The position numbers and the translations under genes were made by a program. Under the pieces are notes generated by a model, which saw only the letters and a list, made by a program, of their open reading frames with translations, was not told the DNA's origin and made no database searches. A stretch of DNA of 64,000 bases from Methanothrix sp. Lineage in GTDB: Archaea > Halobacteriota > Methanosarcinia > Methanotrichales > Methanotrichaceae. Positions 3,578-52,733 of the stretch are shown here, piece by piece (position 1 is the stretch's first letter; each line of letters begins with the position of its first letter). The stretch spans positions 26,660-90,659 of the forward strand of contig JBAXWY010000008.1 of the NCBI GenBank assembly GCA_037128175.1, given 5' to 3'.

Positions 3578-4486
3578 TTATGTAGGCAATATCCGAAACG
3601 TATATTCTCCTTGCAGCGTTACCTTCTTTGCCATTCCTCCAAACCTCGCCCCCAGGATCAGCTCCCCTATCTCCTCCTTCATCACTCTGGCAATGCCGAC
3701 GATGGATGTGGTTGGCCGGGCGTTCACATCCACGACCCTGGGCCGTTCCCCCAACACAAAGTCGATTCCCGCATAGCCGGAGAGGCCCAGCGCCACAGCC
3801 GCCCTTCTCGCTTCAGCCCAAATTTCATCAGCGCGGGGCGTGTTGTAGGGCACCTGGCTTCCCTGGTAGCTCATGCCCTCGCCCCGAAAGTCGATGAGCT
3901 GGCGATTGATGGTGAGCGGCAAAAAGCTCCCATCGCCCACGATGAAGCTGGCGGACAGGTGCAGCCCCTCATGGTAGCGGGTGACGATCTCCCCGAAACC
4001 CGCCCGGGCAAAAGAGGTGACGCGCACGCCCTCTGAGCCACAACCCGTGCGCGGCTTAACCACATAACGGTGGCAGCCCTGCTCCACTGGATCGGGCCTA
4101 TCCACGATCTCAGCCACGGGAACTCCCGCTCGCGCCAGTGCCTGGGTGCAGAGCAGCTTGTCGGCGCATAGCCGCGCCGCGTCGGGACTTGCCCCCAGGT
4201 TCACCGTGTTTTTCTCCAGGATCTCCAGAAGGTGCGGCTGCAGGTCGTCTGGGGCAATCAGGAGCCCGGCATCCGCTTTGCAGTCCAGGACGCCTTCAAA
4301 CTCCTCTTCTCCCTTCATGAGAATGGGCCGGCCCGCCTCTACAACAGGCCCAAATGTGGGATAAAGCACCTCATGCCCGGCCCTCTCGAAGCTGGTCGCC
4401 AGAGTTGCCAGCATGGCTCGCCCCTCCCGCTCGCATGTCCCGCAAAGGCCAAGGGCGGAGGCGTACTCGGCAATAAGAATCTTCAT
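3578..4486 (-). CDS. mfnD: ATP-grasp protein, tyramine--L-glutamate ligase (MfnD)-like, methanofuran biosynthesis
   Basis: MKILIAEY start, LIAPDD, CADKL, VVKPRTGCGS, YAGIDF and VVDVNARPTTS motifs. Confidence 0.7.
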   Translation of the reverse strand: MKILIAEYASALGLCGTCEREGRAMLATLATSFERAGHEVLYPTFGPVVEAGRPILMKGEEEFEGVLDCKADAGLLIAPDDLQPHLLEILEKNTVNLGASPDAARLCADKLLCTQALARAGVPVAEIVDRPDPVEQGCHRYVVKPRTGCGSEGVRVTSFARAGFGEIVTRYHEGLHLSASFIVGDGSFLPLTINRQLIDFRGEGMSYQGSQVPYNTPRADEIWAEARRAAVALGLSGYAGIDFVLGERPRVVDVNARPTTSIVGIARVMKEEIGELILGARFGGMAKKVTLQGEYTFRILPT

Positions 4487-4558
4487 GGATACAATTGCGG
4501 CCCAAACGTACTTAATCCTAGGCTTTATATGCGCGGGTAAAAAAATGCAATTTCACGA

Positions 4559-4966
4559 TCATTTTTCGAGAGATCCGCTTCTCTTGATTAAATAGTACCC
4601 CAAAGACAGCGATATTATGATAGCTGAAAGCCCGAGCAGTCCCATATCATCCGTACCGTCGTTTATCTCCATGATGATGACTTTTCTGGCCATAACGATC
4701 AAGGCCACCAGCAATACACTCAGGACGTTAACCGTCTTATCCCGTTGAAAGGTCTTGAAGGTCTCCAGAAGCTCCACTCCGATGAGCACTAATAGGATGC
4801 TTCCGAAAAAGCTCAATAGCTCGGCAGTCTGCAGGCTTAAAGGAGGGAATATTAGGTATTTGGCCAGGGTGTAGATCACATCTAAAGTGGCCACAAGCGT
4901 TACAATTGCCATTGTCCAAATTAATAATGTAAATATTATATTCTGAAAACGTTCAAGGTATTTCAT
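4559..4966 (-). CDS. Phosphate-starvation-inducible PsiE family membrane protein
   Basis: Four transmembrane segments; LIGVELLET and ALIVMARKVII motifs. Confidence 0.85.
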   Translation of the reverse strand: MKYLERFQNIIFTLLIWTMAIVTLVATLDVIYTLAKYLIFPPLSLQTAELLSFFGSILLVLIGVELLETFKTFQRDKTVNVLSVLLVALIVMARKVIIMEINDGTDDMGLLGLSAIIISLSLGYYLIKRSGSLEK

Positions 4967-5260
4967 AAATCTGAGCCCATCACCTCAATCTCGCTTCACT
5001 CGCTTCACGCACCATGTGGTAAAATGTTAGATGTTAAATATAAAGTTATTTCTTTTTTGGAGGGCCATAATCAAATGCATCGCTCTCGGAGCCCTCGAAA
5101 AAAGCACCGAAGCCAAAGCCGCTTTCGCCAGAGCCATGAGCTGGGCTATGCGAGCCAATACTCGCTTTCGAGTAGTGCGGGTGACCTGTAATCCATCACT
5201 CTTTTTTTGATATGCTTTGAACTGCTGGAGTACTATGTCGGGCTCTCGACCGCCAACTAC

Positions 5261-5280
5261 AAATATTTATAACGATTATA
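5261..5280. promoter_or_regulatory. TATA box, possibly bidirectional, upstream of the structured RNA
   Basis: TTTATAA at 5266-5272 on + (TTATAAAT on -), about 30 nt before the structured GC-rich region starts. Confidence 0.55.
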
Positions 5281-5296
5281 CAAGTAATTAGTCACT

Positions 5297-5750
5297 TCAT
5301 GCCATGATAGGGTGGCGGGCGTGCCGTGGGCTTAACGTATCCGATAATGCTCTGATGACAAGGAAGCTTTTTCCTTGGTACAGGAGATGCATGCCTTCGT
5401 GGCACTGCATTTGGCTACGGGCCTGTGGGGCTGAAACTCCGGCTGGCTGAAAAAGTTGCGCGCTGTAACTGGCGCAGTAATCTGCCGGGAGTCTCACGCT
5501 AATACACGGTCGGGGCATGTTGCGGCACAAGTAGAACGGAGTAGAAGGCGAGAGGGCGAGCATCATGGCCCCATGAGAAAAGGGTTCCGGTAATTCGGAC
5601 GCTGTGTGAGATTCCAGCGCGCTGCCGCCTTCGAGCTGGTTTAATGTCGGGTTTCGGGCAGGTCCAGGCCATCACTTCGGTGAATGGCTCCAGCCTGTTG
5701 GGGCGTTGCGGATCGACGCTGGCCTGCCCAGAGACTTCGGTTATGCTATT
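5297..5750 (+). ncRNA. Putative large (~450 nt) structured non-coding RNA of unknown class
   Basis: No credible ORF; upstream TATA box; many helices with G-U pairs and UUCG loops on the + strand (e.g. 5651-5664/5721-5735, 5668-5688, 5488-5499/5604-5615, 5359-5377); T-rich 3' end. Confidence 0.65.
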
Positions 5751-5760
5751 TTGTAAGTTT

Positions 5761-6606
5761 TTAAACCAATGGCCGGGGCTGCTTCTTCTCGGGCAAAACC
5801 GGCAGAGACATGGTATTTATCAGAAGCGGCTGTTCTACATCCTTGGCTCTCTCCACCAGCAGCTCCTTGCCCCAGCGTGTCAGGCCGAAGAGCGGCACGG
5901 CGGTTCCCACCTGCACCAGAGGCTTTACCTGCTCACGAATGTGCTTTGAGGCGCAGGCGGTAACAATATCGGCTACAGCCAAAAGCCTCGCCGCATCTTC
6001 TCTGCTTAGGGCGGTGAGATGAACACCCACAATCATTATCCGAACTCTCGTCGTCTTCTCCAGCTCTCGCAGCTTTTCCGCAGATGCTGCATCGGCTACC
6101 GTGACGGCAAATTTCTTGTACCCGGCCGCTGCCGCATAGGCCGCCCCTTCTATCTGGTCTATCTTGCCGTCCTGGGGGGAGAGCACATGCCCATCCCTGG
6201 CCCGGATGCCTTCGATTACCTCTGGTATGGGATCGGTCTTAACAAGTCCAGATATGTAGCCGCCCATGCCCTGAACCAGATCGGCATTGGCTGTTATCAC
6301 GCTGCCCGCTCCATCGCAAACGGTAACTGCTGCGTCGATAATTCCTGTCTTTATGCCGGTCATCATGGACTCGGAGGCCCCAAAGCCCACGAAGATGCCC
6401 ATCTGCAGCTTGCGCCGCGCCGAGAACATACCGTGATTTTTTATTCTAAACTCCATATTTGCAGCCGCCGATTCAGCAGTCACTTTTTTTATGCCCCTGA
6501 TCTTGTCGAAGAGCGGACACCACTCAATCAAGGGCTCGCTCGCATCCAGAACCTTTTCGCCTTCCACTTTGACGCGAGATTTGCCTAATAGCTCCATTAT
6601 GTGCAT
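5761..6606 (-). CDS. Methanogenesis marker 8 protein (DUF2099)
   Basis: HIMELLGK, WCPLF, FVGFGASE, VCDGAG, QGMGGYISGLV and TACASK motifs. Confidence 0.9.
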   Translation of the reverse strand: MHIMELLGKSRVKVEGEKVLDASEPLIEWCPLFDKIRGIKKVTAESAAANMEFRIKNHGMFSARRKLQMGIFVGFGASESMMTGIKTGIIDAAVTVCDGAGSVITANADLVQGMGGYISGLVKTDPIPEVIEGIRARDGHVLSPQDGKIDQIEGAAYAAAAGYKKFAVTVADAASAEKLRELEKTTRVRIMIVGVHLTALSREDAARLLAVADIVTACASKHIREQVKPLVQVGTAVPLFGLTRWGKELLVERAKDVEQPLLINTMSLPVLPEKKQPRPLV

Positions 6607-46300: not shown

Positions 46301-46406
46301 GCCGGGGTGGCCTAGTTGGTTAGGGCGCGAGACTCATAGGGTAATACGATTAACGCGCGCTTCCTGAGGTATCTCGAAGTCGCGGGCTCGAATCCCGCTC
46401 CCGGCA
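46301..46406 (+). tRNA. tRNA-Met(CAT), elongator, with a 32-nt intron at 37/38 (46339-46370)
   Basis: Acceptor stem GCCGGGG/TCCCGGC; anticodon stem CGAGA/TCTCG; anticodon CAT at 46335-46337; BHB-compatible intron; TATA-like TTATTTAA at about 46268. Confidence 0.92.
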
Positions 46407-51873: not shown

Positions 51874-52004
51874 TTTGGCACCTAAACAGAAGGCTTTTAA
51901 ATCAAGATAGTATAAGCGTCTTCGATTATGCCAAGATGGTTTTCTAGTGAGTAGTAGGTAGTAGGATTTATATAGCTAGATGGGACTATTATTTATAGTA
52001 GTGT

Positions 52005-52070
52005 TGTAAGACCCTCCTGAAAAGGATGATGCCACCCATTGGTGGACGTGACGAAGTATGGAGGGGTTCA
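52005..52070 (-). ncRNA. Candidate DUF3800-associated structured RNA element
   Basis: Directly 3' of the DUF3800 stop: CCCTCC...GGAGGG outer stem enclosing a CCACC-AATG-GGTGG hairpin. Confidence 0.45.
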
Positions 52071-52733
52071 CTACAACTCACTTTTGTCAACTTCAAAATC
52101 CAATCTTGTGGCTATTTTATGCTGGATCTTCTGGTAATAGCGATCATCACCATCCCTATACCTACGATTTATGGCACCTGCAATGAAGTCCACAGCCTGG
52201 ATGCAAGGGCAGGCTTTGGAGTCCACATGGGTCACTTTGATATCTCCCAGAGTGGCAGGCACTACCATCCCGGATCTATCAGCCATGTGAGCATCAAACT
52301 TTGCCCTCTGTATCCCATAAAGGGACTTATCCATGATGACTTCCACCTGACCGGACATGCCATAGTTATTGATGATTTTGTACGTTAGTTGTTTGCAGAC
52401 CTCATTATAGATGAGCTGTGGCTCCACCTCATGCTGAATGTCTGAGTTTCGTAGAAGTGCATAGCCAATATCGTTATTTGTCCTTCCTATGCATTCAAGG
52501 ATTCTCCTCTTGATCGGATCATCAGAGTCATTGAATTTCAGCTCGGAGGTCTTATGATACCTCTTTTTGATCTTCTTCTTCCTGATGTCCTTTATGCATC
52601 TCTTTATGGGGAGGTCTTCTCTGAGGACCAATGCAGCCAGCACAAAATAGGGAACTGATTCTGAGGCATTGGCCATTAAGCCATTAACTATACTGCCAGA
52701 TTCATCAAGATAGACCCGCATTCGTTCACCCAT
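52071..52733 (-). CDS. DUF3800-domain protein (predicted RNase H-like fold)
   Basis: VYLDESG, ELKF, IMDK and DSK..P.IQAVDFIAGAI motifs; AT-rich flanks; TTTATAAA promoter at about 52751-52758 (-). Confidence 0.85.
   Translation of the reverse strand: MGERMRVYLDESGSIVNGLMANASESVPYFVLAALVLREDLPIKRCIKDIRKKKIKKRYHKTSELKFNDSDDPIKRRILECIGRTNNDIGYALLRNSDIQHEVEPQLIYNEVCKQLTYKIINNYGMSGQVEVIMDKSLYGIQRAKFDAHMADRSGMVVPATLGDIKVTHVDSKACPCIQAVDFIAGAINRRYRDGDDRYYQKIQHKIATRLDFEVDKSEL

What the first reader, a model, noticed from the sequence alone, without database searches (positions are those of the whole stretch)
5297..5750. Unrecognised ~450-nt highly structured non-coding RNA with its own promoter
Seen: the 790-bp gap between psiE and marker 8 has no credible ORF but has a TATA box (5266-5272) and then dense + strand pairing. 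Local helices: 5359-5365/5371-5377; 5387-5395/5401-5410 (UUCG-containing loop); 5439-5443/5484-5488 enclosing 5456-5461/5472-5477; hairpins 5563-5576 and 5586-5599; 5614-5618/5635-5639. A 12-bp long-range helix joins 5488-5499 to 5604-5615. A 3' multi-way junction is closed by 14 bp (5651-5664/5721-5735) and carries a cUUCGg hairpin (5668-5688). Two crossing pairings suggest pseudoknots: 5311-5318 with 5622-5629, and 5321-5328 with 5521-5528. T-loop-like (CTGAAA twice, CTGTAA) and AGTAGAA (twice) motifs occur. G-U pairs favour the + strand. It lacks RNase P, SRP, rRNA and tRNA signatures. Inference: a large ornate ncRNA, possibly a new archaeal class, and the best candidate for an undescribed system in this window.
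Basis: partly seen in the sequence, partly recalled or inferred. Interest (0 to 1): 0.85.

Follow-up and report, generated by a model that had tools for sequence, protein, structure and literature searches.

The report
New abundant structured RNA of Methanothrix
This is a gene for a roughly 460-base folded RNA that matches no catalogued RNA family, is kept in several copies by Methanothrix-family methane-producing archaea and is plentiful in environmental RNA samples, but its function is still unknown.

Summary
The flagged region is real. Window ~5246-5762 (+) is a promoter plus a gene for a ~460-nt structured non-coding RNA.

- **Copies and spread:** It is one of 8 paralogous copies in this genome. 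My covariance model finds it in 51 of 74 other genomes of the same family, 1-12 matches each. It finds none in 76 genomes of four other families of the class, nor in 146 further genomes of the phylum. Public records name the carriers Methanothrix or Methanotrichaceae.
- **Shared anatomy:** Copies share a ~40-bp palindromic promoter block, a T-rich tail, no conserved reading frame, and three folded domains.
- **Covariation:** Helices are kept by compensatory changes. In three alignments 85-92% of cells pair, against 30-45% in slid controls, and double changes exceed all 500 shuffles.
- **Strand:** G·U outnumber A·C 841:193, which favours the + strand.
- **Expression:** RNA contigs identical to this copy occur in 4 of 4 metatranscriptomes laid. 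In three of them depth is 12-2900 times that of the neighbouring gene.
- **Known families:** No Rfam family matches. RNase P and SRP RNAs lie elsewhere in the genome.
Most of its local helices hold. Its 12-bp long-range helix and two pseudoknots are not conserved, and it missed the domain-closing helix P1.

Function is untested. I favour a trans-acting, protein-binding RNA. A back-joined RNA contig hints at circularisation, but this is unproven.

The parts
5246..5286 (+). Conserved promoter block. It is BRE/TATA-like and contains the inverted repeat TATYTATA-N7-TATAGATA in most copies.
   Evidence: Near-identical in copies from this genome and from other genera (alignments). A regex for its core hits 6 places in the own genome, and all 6 are copies of this RNA gene. 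C6 and C31 carry variants.
5287..5752 (+). Inferred primary transcript of the structured RNA, about 460 nt. The 5' end is inferred and the 3' end is approximate.
   Evidence: RNA contigs cover 5310-5723 and are absent from 4900-5268. The back-joined contigs begin at the base equivalent to 5287. G·U against A·C is 841:193. The tail is T-rich.
5291..5526 (+). Domain 1, closed by helix P1 (arms 5291-5303 and 5514-5526). Inner helices:
- P2 5316-5323/5505-5512
- P3 5328-5332/5420-5424
- P4 5341-5344/5411-5414
- P5 5350-5353/5383-5386
- P7 5425-5430/5492-5497
- P8 5440-5445/5482-5487
   Evidence: the count of structure pairs on A4 (38 copies): 87.3% of cells paired against 37-45% when slid. 35 of 58 pairs show double changes against 22.2±2.4 in shuffles (0/500). 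P1 has double changes at 10 of 13 pairs. In the window copy P1 pairs at only 10 of 13 positions.
5359..5377 (+). Variable hairpin on top of P5. It is short in this copy, about 90 nt in most copies and absent from some.
   Evidence: Alignments.
5387..5410 (+). Hairpin P6 with loop UUCGU.
   Evidence: All five counted pairs show double changes, and 88.6-89% of cells pair.
5457..5479 (+). Hairpin P9 (stem GCGCU/GGCGC, loop GUAACU). It is the best conserved hairpin of domain 1.
   Evidence: 97.4% of cells paired, and 5 of 8 pairs show double changes.
5530..5640 (+). Domain 2, a multi-helix junction:
- P11 5555-5562/5623-5629
- three hairpins: 5568-5585, 5586-5599 and 5600-5619
- a closing helix near 5541-5549/5635-5640, which is weak in this copy (3 of 7 pairs)
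   Evidence: A2 (51 copies including other genera): 85.1% of cells paired against 34-45% when slid. 23 of 31 pairs show double changes against 12.4±2.0 in shuffles (0/500). Window coordinates.
5646..5739 (+). Domain 3. A roughly 20-bp rod (5646-5667/5719-5739) is topped by a four-way junction with three hairpins: 5668-5688 (UUCG loop), 5689-5703 and 5704-5718.
   Evidence: A1 (51 copies): 92.2% of cells paired against 30-45% when slid. 19 of 42 pairs show double changes against 7.6±1.7 in shuffles (0/500). This part is the core of covariance model R1.
5749..5762 (+). Two T runs (TTTT and TTTTT), probably the archaeal oligo-T terminator. They abut the stop codon of the convergent marker-8 gene (5761-6606, - strand).
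   Evidence: Sequence. 39 of 48 copies have a run of at least 4 T within 90 nt after the last hairpin, against 16 of 48 with a run of at least 4 A. The tail is 40% T.
4528..5750 (.). Context: a 1.23-kb segment (psiE plus the RNA gene) that is present here and in the closest relative only.
   Evidence: Of the 30 marker-8 loci fetched (one being the own genome), only the own genome and G012 hold it. In G011 the flanks, window 4526 and 5758, lie 6 bp apart. No terminal repeats were found.

Best explanation
Window ~5246-5762 (+) is a free-standing gene for a new, three-domain, ~460-nt structured non-coding RNA. It belongs to a multicopy family confined to Methanothrix and related genera.

**Shown**
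- It has multiple paralogues that share a promoter block.
- Its helices are conserved and covary.
- It has no coding capacity.
- The strand asymmetry of G·U pairs and of the T-rich tail points to the + strand.
- The RNA is present in environmental transcriptomes at far greater contig depth than the neighbouring gene.

**Inferred**
- Transcription starts about 5287, from the palindromic BRE/TATA block. The palindrome would let one dimeric regulator control all copies.
- Transcription ends at the oligo-T runs after 5749.
- The RNA folds into domain 1 (closed by helix P1), domain 2 and domain 3.

**Proposed mechanism (about 0.2 for this part)**
- It acts in trans as a stable folded RNA that binds protein, as a ribonucleoprotein scaffold or a sequestering RNA, and not as an antisense guide. 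What is conserved is helices, junctions and A-rich or GUAA-type loops, including two hairpins with the same GCGCU/GGCGC stem. The sequence differences between paralogues lie mainly in helices and in one expandable hairpin.
- 28 of 37 copies are followed by a gene for an anti-Shine-Dalgarno small RNA, so a role connected with translation control is my first guess.
For: **Family**
- 5 BLAST matches in the own genome, plus more divergent nhmmer matches and a copy at a contig end found by its promoter. Counting promoters gives 8 copies.
- BLAST matches in 24 of 24 genomes of the genus.
- Model R1 matches 51 of 74 other genomes of the family. These cover 11 genera; four genera were negative, one of them in 0 of 7 genomes that are 91-99% complete. 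It matches 0 of 76 genomes in other families of the class.
- Phylum sample: 0 of 150 other genomes.
- Named public records with the 20-mer: 35 of 45 are Methanothrix, Methanotrichaceae or Methanosaeta MAGs. R1 confirms no full match in the 10 bacterial records.

**Structure**
- Covariation counts are (figures in the parts list).
- The MFE fold of the commoner paralogue recovers P1, the domain-2 hairpins and the domain-3 junction on its own, at z -2.66.

**Strand**
- 841 G·U against 193 A·C cells, and a T-rich tail.

**Non-coding**
-.

**Free-standing**
- 10 neighbouring proteins of 6 own copies belong to unrelated families.
- DUF1699 is the only recurrent neighbour, in 10 of 33 loci. It has 8 paralogues in this genome, and 6 of them are not next to the RNA.

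**Expression**
- 24 RNA runs from 14 studies hold 0.19-0.36 of the words of window 5100-5900.
- Contigs with no mismatch across copy-specific sequence:
  - X1 5507-5593, depth 3481
  - X2 5503-5578, depth 8544
  - X3 5459-5561, depth 5000, and 5532-5611, depth 3116
  - X4 5445-5611, depth 79
- Contigs over the marker-8 gene have depth 28 (X1), 2-3 (X2) and 407 (X3), with none in X4.

**Not a known family**
-.

**Small-RNA neighbour**
- 28 of 37 copies.
Against: - The window copy alone does not fold better than shuffles (z -1.27).
- Its P1 is degenerate (10 of 13 pairs) and its domain-2 closing helix is weak (3 of 7 pairs). It lacks the small-RNA neighbour and sits in a recent 1.23-kb indel. 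It may therefore be an atypical or decaying paralogue, although it is expressed.
- The runs laid are assembled contigs. They give no strand, no ends and no reliable level, and DNA carry-over cannot be excluded. One X3 contig (5582-6073) runs on into the marker-8 gene.
- The sequences are close kin. The tool itself warns that shuffles overstate significance for related sequences.
- I derived the structures from these same sequences and placed some helices by hand on MAFFT alignments.
- The automatic RNAalifold run on A1 proposed a different long-range pairing for two segments.
- No protein partner, target or phenotype is known. The functional part is conjecture.
- No special complementarity to the neighbouring small RNA was found.
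Confidence: 0.85

Rival explanations
1. The 5' domain (about 5287-5528) is released and circularised, as happens to archaeal rRNA precursors, introns and some C/D RNAs. The circle is the functional species. This reading is compatible with the best explanation.
For: - Two RNA contigs from two studies join the end of P1's 3' arm (…GCGGCAC or …GCGGCACA) directly to the 5' start (GUUUGCCGC…), at depths 658 and 112 (table 5c).
- The specific joined motif is absent from the own genome and from all fetched loci (0 hits).
- P1 brings these two points together.
Against: - Contigs identical to the window copy run straight through 5528, at depth 3481 and 8544. Linear domain 1-domain 2 RNA therefore dominates, at least for this copy.
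- I found no canonical bulge-helix-bulge motif by eye, and the MFE fold shows no helix outside P1.
- A reverse transcriptase that runs off the 5' end and switches to the adjacent 3' strand, or to another molecule, would give the same joint.
- Only two joints were listed.
Confidence: 0.15
2. It is a repeated DNA element (MITE-like or a recombination hotspot) or a duplicated promoter and untranslated region. The RNA itself has no function.
For: - It is multicopy and sits in variable genomic contexts.
- The window copy lies in a lineage-specific 1.23-kb indel.
- Some copies are in tandem.
Against: - Compensatory changes preserve helices on one strand. Selection on DNA alone does not explain that.
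- There are no terminal inverted or direct repeats of 12 nt or more in window 4450-5850, and no target duplication is evident at the indel borders.
- The indel also carries psiE.
- No transposase, TnpB or IscB is among 10 neighbours.
- One paralogue keeps synteny with DUF1699 in 10 of 33 loci.
Confidence: 0.05
3. It is a cis-acting leader or riboswitch-like element that controls the downstream gene or the downstream small RNA.
For: 28 of 37 copies are followed within about 150 nt by the small-RNA unit.
Against: - A T-rich terminator-like tail separates the two units, and the small RNA has its own promoter block.
- The window copy faces a convergent gene, and other copies have unrelated downstream genes.
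- At 460 nt with three domains it is far larger than known leaders.
Confidence: 0.05
4. It is a highly diverged paralogue of a known RNA (RNase P, SRP, intron, ribozyme, C/D or H/ACA RNA), or a decayed protein gene.
For: - UGAUGA motifs occur at 5343-5358 in one subfamily.
- An ACA follows P1 in many copies.
Against: - Rfam cmscan at E up to 10 over window 5000-5900 gives only two chance hits. At E up to 1 on 9 other copies it gives only three chance hits.
- Genuine RNase P and SRP RNAs score 220.9 and 187.7 bits elsewhere in the genome.
- ARAGORN finds nothing.
- The UGAUGA motif is missing from the second subfamily. The ACA is replaced by GCA, UCA, ACU or CAA in several copies.
- Coding is excluded.
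Confidence: 0.03

Closest known systems
Large 'ornate' orphan ncRNAs of bacteria and phages (OLE, GOLLD, ROOL, raiA). The names are recalled; the Rfam models were searched.
   Same: - Several hundred nucleotides long.
- Many covarying helices and multi-way junctions.
- No coding capacity.
- Lineage-restricted.
- Function not deducible from sequence.
   Different: - No match to any of their Rfam models.
- Archaeal.
- Multicopy, with up to 12 model matches per genome.
- Each copy has its own strongly conserved promoter block.
- Whether it multimerises or binds membrane proteins, as some of those RNAs do, is untested.
IMES and similar RNAs first noticed for extreme abundance in metatranscriptomes (recalled; not read here)
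   Same: Found as an unannotated structured RNA whose contigs far exceed neighbouring genes in environmental RNA data.
   Different: - Here the host lineage is known and the genomic copies are in hand.
- Abundance rests on contig depths in four runs and was not compared with rRNA or RNase P RNA.
Sibling (multicopy) small-RNA families. One example is the ~65-nt anti-Shine-Dalgarno sRNAs of Methanothrix (earlier finding e1-2640597), for which that finding names M. mazei sRNA41 as closest known.
   Same: - Multicopy.
- Each copy is self-promoted.
- Family-restricted.
- The two gene kinds are neighbours in 28 of 37 cases.
   Different: - Seven times longer, with three folded domains.
- Conservation lies in structure, not in an exposed seed.
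- No better-than-shuffled pairing with the neighbouring sRNA.
Archaeal circular RNAs made at bulge-helix-bulge motifs (rRNA precursors, introns, some C/D RNAs; permuted SRP RNA of Thermoproteus). All recalled.
   Same: A long terminal helix (P1) juxtaposes the ends of a domain, and RNA contigs with a back-joint exist.
   Different: - No canonical bulge-helix-bulge motif was seen.
- Linear read-through contigs dominate for this copy.
- Circularity was not tested.
Protein-sequestering or scaffold RNAs (6S, CsrB, Y RNA). A functional analogy only.
   Same: Abundant, stable, trans-acting and structure-dependent. Repeated similar hairpins could be protein sites.
   Different: - No sequence or structural homology.
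- No partner protein is known.
- No such RNA has been described in archaea, to my knowledge (recalled).

Membership tests
Archaeal RNase P RNA (RF00373) | Covariance-model score above the gathering threshold (84 bits), with the conserved P4 core. | tested here: not met
   No hit in window 5000-5900 even at E up to 10. The genuine gene is at G000:C37:17303-17606, 220.9 bits.
Archaeal SRP RNA (RF01857) | Covariance-model score above 96.5 bits. | tested here: not met
   No hit in the region. The genuine gene is at G000:C82:2856-3170, 187.7 bits.
tRNA, tmRNA or tRNA-like element | A cloverleaf recognised by ARAGORN or Rfam tRNA. | tested here: not met
   ARAGORN finds 0 genes in 5200-5800. Rfam tRNA hits only 46301-46406. 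Domain 3 is a four-way junction, but its closing rod is about 20 bp.
Known self-cleaving ribozymes and group I/II introns (Rfam) | A match to the family model. | tested here: not met
   cmscan of all 4227 families gives nothing at E up to 10 apart from the L20 leader (E 1.6) and mir-1842 (E 4.5). Nine other copies give only three chance hits. The CUGAUGA at 5352-5358 is not followed by the GAAA of a hammerhead core (sequence).
Transposon-linked guide RNAs (IscB omega RNA/HEARO, TnpB reRNA, IS110 bridge RNA) | Lies beside, or overlaps, the nuclease or recombinase gene. For HEARO, a match to the Rfam model. | tested here: not met
   10 flanking proteins of 6 own copies are DUF11, DUF1699, Dabb, U32 peptidase, hydrolase, GH94, HSP20, a class II aminoacyl-tRNA-synthetase-like protein, and a radical-SAM/MoaA-like protein. 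There is no Rfam hit.
Box C/D sRNA | Conserved C (RUGAUGA) and D (CUGA) boxes near the ends forming a K-turn, about 50-70 nt long, with a guide complementary to rRNA or tRNA. | tested here: not met
   UGAUGA motifs are present in one subfamily only and missing in the other (alignment). The size is about 460 nt. Guide complementarity was not tested.
Box H/ACA sRNA | An ACA immediately 3' of a hairpin that has a pseudouridylation pocket and a K-turn or K-loop. | tested here: not met
   The triplet after P1 is ACA in most copies but GCA, UCA, ACU or CAA in others. P1 encloses about 220 nt and not a simple pocket hairpin.
BHB-processed circular archaeal RNA | A helix, 3-nt bulge, 4-bp helix, 3-nt bulge, helix at the cut sites, with RNase-R-resistant back-joined RNA. 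| tested here: inconclusive
   Back-joined contigs occur in 2 of 4 runs, and the specific joint is absent from the DNA in hand. I saw only a 2-3-nt bulge plus a possible 4-5-bp helix on one side, and no outer helix. RNase R is not testable here.
MITE or other non-autonomous transposon | Terminal inverted repeats and target-site duplication, with precise empty sites. | tested here: not met
   No terminal inverted or direct repeat of 12 nt or more in 4450-5850. The empty site in G011 removes psiE as well, and no duplication is evident. Duplications of a few bases cannot be excluded.
Large ornate ncRNAs (OLE, GOLLD, ROOL, raiA) as homologous families | A match to the family covariance model. | tested here: not met
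   The resemblance is one of kind only: a large, multi-junction orphan RNA.

The most novel reading that the evidence does not exclude
The large RNA and the anti-Shine-Dalgarno small RNA encoded beside it form a two-RNA translation-control module peculiar to mesophilic Methanotrichaceae. The large RNA would work as a ribosome- or protein-binding particle. Its 5' domain would be released as a stable circle, or serve as a rolling template, through the P1-juxtaposed ends. That would make it a new class of abundant archaeal ribonucleoprotein RNA in a widespread group of acetate-consuming methanogens (recalled).
Probability: 0.12. Interest if true: 0.9.

Novelty: categorically new. Interest (0 to 1): 0.8.

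Why it matters
Methanothrix is a widespread acetate-consuming methanogen in wetlands, rice fields, sediments and digesters (established knowledge, recalled). A lineage-specific, multicopy RNA with an intricate conserved fold is unlikely to be idle when its contigs outnumber a neighbouring housekeeping gene by one to three orders of magnitude in field transcriptomes.

- **For RNA biology:** It adds a large structured RNA class from Archaea, where few are known beyond RNase P, SRP and guide RNAs (recalled).
- **For archaeal gene regulation:** It offers a very strongly conserved palindromic promoter shared by all copies. It also shows a physical link to anti-ribosome-binding-site small RNAs.
- **For metatranscriptomics:** The covariance model gives a way to recognise reads that are at present unassigned.
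- **Testability:** It is directly testable in cultured Methanothrix soehngenii.

Tried and rejected
**Known families and coding**
- Rfam at gathering and at permissive thresholds gave nothing for this copy or for 9 others.
- ARAGORN found nothing.
- A coding reading is rejected.

**Mobile element, plasmid or virus origin**
- No terminal repeats.
- No match in 72,556 plasmids by blastn.
- A 20-mer scan of IMG/VR gave 2 contigs that model R1 does not confirm.
- The 'phages' collection and metagenome contigs were not searched.

**Conserved protein neighbour**
- Own-genome neighbours are unrelated.
- Clustering of stop-to-stop frames from 33 loci gave only frames inside the RNA itself, plus DUF1699.
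- DUF1699 has 6 other paralogues in this genome that are not next to the RNA, and the family also occurs in Methanosarcina acetivorans.

**Pairing with the neighbouring anti-SD sRNA**
- In the 14 of 17 modules printed, cognate duplex energies were no better than shuffled controls.

**RNA contig depth as evidence of processing**
- I first read the fall in summed RNA-contig depth after 5637 as processing, then rejected that reading.
- The summed depth tracks how similar the window copy is to its paralogues. 7 of 50 copies are at least 90% identical in 5380-5520 and 0 of 50 elsewhere.
- Contigs specific to this copy differ only 4-7 fold between domains 1-2 and domain 3.
- The lack of RNA cover over 4900-5268 is likewise only weak evidence for the 5' border.

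**P1 by RNAduplex**
- A test with regex anchors was noisy: cognate mean -27.6 against non-cognate mean -24.8 kcal/mol. It was replaced by column counts.

**Alternative structure from RNAalifold**
- On A1 the tool paired CAGCGC with GCGCUG over a long range, and none of those six pairs showed a double change.
- The two local hairpins show double changes (2 of 5 and 5 of 5 pairs), so I kept them. One copy (L043) fits the long-range alternative better.

**Motifs checked by eye only**
- K-turn, C/D, H/ACA and hammerhead motifs are not conserved across the subfamilies.

**Technical dead ends**
- MAFFT Q-INS-i was not usable.
- One search was an alignment made with wrongly guessed coordinates and was discarded.

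**Earlier findings of this scan**
- Look-ups by place and by sequence returned nothing.

**Literature**
- Six full-text searches were run:
  - Methanothrix + non-coding RNA
  - Methanosaeta + ncRNA
  - Methanosaeta + circular RNA
  - Methanotrichaceae or structured RNA
  - Methanothrix + sRNA
  - Methanosaeta + RNA motif
- I saw the listings only. None describes this RNA.
- I read passages of PMC13153191. It concerns a bacterial group I intron RNA seen in Methanothrix cells and is unrelated.
Full report
**What is at the coordinates.**
- The stretch between psiE (4559-4966, - strand) and the methanogenesis marker-8 gene (5761-6606, - strand) has only short unconserved frames.
- From 5300 to 5800 G+C is 0.565-0.575 with positive GC skew. 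The DNA upstream is 0.36-0.475 G+C.
- On this sequence alone folding is unremarkable. The + strand gives -183.8 kcal/mol at z -1.27, with 11 of 100 shuffles as good. The - strand gives z -1.42.
- 'Dense pairing' in one sequence is therefore not more than chance. The case rests on comparison.

**A multicopy family.**
- BLAST of window 5230-5770 finds 5 places in the own genome.
- nhmmer adds two diverged copies. A promoter scan adds one more at a contig end. That makes 8 promoter-bearing copies: C8 (this one), C28, C55, C6, C33, C4, C31 and C42. Three of them (C55, C33, C42) are cut by contig ends.
- All 24 genomes of the same genus in a first sample have matches. None of 16 genomes from other genera of the class do.
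- I built covariance model R1 (152 positions, 42 pairs) from the last 150 nt of 51 copies. It finds:
  - 1-12 matches in 51 of 74 other genomes of the family;
  - 32 of 34 genomes in the genus;
  - ten further positive genera;
  - four negative genera, including one with 0 of 7 genomes that are 91-99% complete;
  - 0 of 76 genomes in four other families of the class;
  - 0 of 150 other genomes sampled across the phylum.
- Public records holding a conserved 20-mer are named Methanothrix, Methanotrichaceae or Methanosaeta in 35 of 45 cases. In the other ten records (bacterial) and in two viral contigs, R1 finds no full match, so those are chance 20-mers.

**Gene anatomy.**
- *Promoter:* All copies share a block of about 40 bp upstream (window 5246-5286). 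In most copies it reads …AACTACAAATATCTATAACGATTATATAGATAG and contains the inverted repeat TATCTATA-N7-TATAGATA. In the own genome its core occurs only at copies of this gene, 6 of 6 regex hits.
- *Tail:* After the last helix the + strand turns T-rich. 39 of 48 copies have a run of at least 4 T within 90 nt, against 16 of 48 with a run of at least 4 A, and the tail is 40% T. Here the runs are at 5749-5752 and 5758-5762.
- *Coding:* There is no conserved frame. Each frame holds 4-7 stops per copy, and 13% of 3897 indels are multiples of three.
- *Strand:* In the helices below, G·U cells outnumber A·C cells 841 to 193. With promoter and tail, this points to the + strand.

**Fold.** RNAalifold on 51 copies, refined on three alignments, gives three domains.
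- *Domain 1* (5287-5529) is closed by P1 (5291-5303/5514-5526). It holds P2-P9, including an expandable hairpin (5359-5377) that is about 90 nt in most copies.
  - On 38 copies from several genera, 87.3% of cells pair, against 37-45% when partners are slid.
  - 35 of 58 pairs show changes on both sides, against 22.2±2.4 in shuffles (0 of 500 reach it).
  - P1 has such changes at 10 of 13 pairs. One example is GCCGCUUCAUGCC/GGCAUGAAGCGGC against GCCGCGUUCUGC/GCGGGACGCGGC.
- *Domain 2* (5530-5640) is a junction with three hairpins. 85.1% of cells pair against 34-45% slid, and 23 of 31 pairs show double changes against 12.4±2.0.
- *Domain 3* (5646-5739) is a rod of about 20 bp under a four-way junction. 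92.2% of cells pair against 30-45% slid, and 19 of 42 pairs show double changes against 7.6±1.7.
- The commoner paralogue (C28) folds to the same P1, domain-2 hairpins and domain-3 junction unaided, at z -2.66 with 0 of 100 shuffles as good.
- *Caveats:*
  - The sequences are kin.
  - I derived the structures from these same sequences.
  - Some helices were placed by hand.
  - The automatic fold of A1 preferred another pairing for two segments.
  - The window copy has a degenerate P1 (10 of 13 pairs) and a weak domain-2 closing helix.

Most of its local helices coincide with covarying ones. Five proposed elements are formed in this copy, but across 51 copies they either break when bases vary or compete with covarying helices:
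- the 12-bp long-range helix;
- both pseudoknots;
- 5614-5618/5635-5639;
- the 5563-5576 hairpin.

**Expression.**
- 24 metatranscriptome runs from 14 studies hold 0.19-0.36 of the sampled words of window 5100-5900.
- I laid four of them, all assembled contigs, on 4900-6100. There is no cover before 5269 and heavy cover from 5310.
- The summed depth is inflated by relatives and cannot rank parts of the gene. Only 5380-5520 is at least 90% identical to other copies, and only to 7 of 50. I therefore withdraw my first reading that the fall after 5637 marks processing.
- What can be said:
  - Contigs with no mismatch across the copy-specific segment 5521-5560 exist in all four runs, at depths 3481, 8544, 5000/3116 and 79.
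  - Those contigs run unbroken from domain 1 into domain 2.
  - Domain 3 is covered at depths 506 and 2341.
  - Contigs over the marker-8 gene have depths 28, 2-3 and 407, and none in the fourth run.
- Contigs show neither strand nor ends. One X3 contig continues from 5582 into the marker-8 gene.

**A back-joint.** Two contigs from two studies join …GCGGCAC(A) directly to GUUUGCCGC…, at depths 658 and 112. That is the base of P1's 3' arm joined to the RNA's first bases.
- The specific joint is absent from the own genome and from all loci held.
- It places the 5' end at the G equivalent to window 5287.
- It fits three readings: a circular 5' domain, end-to-end template switching, or a switch across the base of P1.
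- I found no canonical bulge-helix-bulge motif, and linear contigs dominate. I give circularisation about 0.15.

**Context and history.**
- Neighbours of the own copies are unrelated genes.
- The only recurrent protein neighbour is DUF1699, in 10 of 33 loci. It has six further paralogues in this genome that are not next to the RNA.
- The window copy sits in a 1.23-kb segment (about 4528-5750, psiE plus the RNA gene). Among the 30 marker-8 loci fetched, one of them the own genome, only the own genome and its closest relative hold this segment. In G011 the flanks are 6 bp apart. No terminal repeats were found.
- Copies are thus partly syntenic and partly reshuffled, as in an ordinary multigene family. 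I see no transposon hallmarks.
- In 28 of 37 copies with enough downstream sequence, a second self-promoted unit follows about 150 nt later. It is a hairpin with CCUCC motifs. This is the anti-Shine-Dalgarno small RNA of earlier finding e1-2640597.
- The window copy lacks that unit. I found no special pairing between the two RNAs.

**What it is not.**
- No Rfam family matches.
- RNase P and SRP RNAs are elsewhere in the genome.
- There is no tRNA-like call and no plasmid match.
- Six literature searches found no description of this RNA (listings seen). PMC13153191 is unrelated (passages read).

**Verdict.** This is a genuine, expressed, structurally constrained RNA gene family without known relatives. 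How it works is open. I commit to a trans-acting, protein-binding structural RNA under common promoter control, possibly tied to translation control through its small-RNA neighbour. I rate that mechanism at about 0.2, against 0.85 for the identification itself.

Noticed in passing
L025:~4000-4190 (- strand), and downstream of many other copies: A second conserved unit follows the large RNA by about 150 nt in 28 of 37 copies. It has a BRE/TATA-like block (…GCGAAAGCCTTTTATCTCGGCAATTGACG…) and then a hairpin GGCAAAAGUCGA…CCCUCCUACA…GACUUUUGCC with a UCCCUCC tail. It matches the anti-Shine-Dalgarno sRNA of earlier finding e1-2640597. The window copy lacks it.
   Followed up: partly
window 51999-52073 (+): Rfam DUF3800-X RNA match, 69.3 bits against a gathering score of 38.2.
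   Followed up: no
window 46301-46406 (+): The Rfam tRNA match spans 106 nt for a 71-position model, so this is probably an intron-bearing tRNA gene.
   Followed up: no
window 6617: Synteny with relatives breaks here as well. Several genomes (L105, L107, L109, L112) hold about 690 bp more between the marker-8 gene and the next gene.
   Followed up: no
G000:C28:13847-14236 and C55:567-956, plus six other places: DUF1699 (PF08004) has 8 paralogues in this genome. Two end about 50 nt upstream of large-RNA promoters, and this arrangement recurs in 10 of 33 loci from several genomes.
   Followed up: partly
L025:~3890-3960 (- strand) and L031 just after the RNA: A GGAGG ribosome-binding site is followed by a short frame (MGLDDW…, about 17 codons), some 250 nt downstream of the C28 copy. 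A similar stretch follows the RNA directly in another genome.
   Followed up: no
window 5582-6073: One RNA contig of run X3 (493 nt, depth 407, 14 mismatches) runs from domain 2 through the T-rich tail into the convergent marker-8 gene. This could be read-through, an antisense 3' UTR or DNA carry-over.
   Followed up: no
G000:C28:15050-15176 and C60:7339-7452: Weak matches to model R1 (26.2 and 23.6 bits), possibly decayed fragments of further copies.
   Followed up: no
window 5321-5328 versus 5521-5528: In the subfamily that has it, GUGCCGUG can pair with P1's 3' arm in place of the 5' arm (83% of cells). This may be an alternative conformation. There is no covariation to support it.
   Followed up: partly
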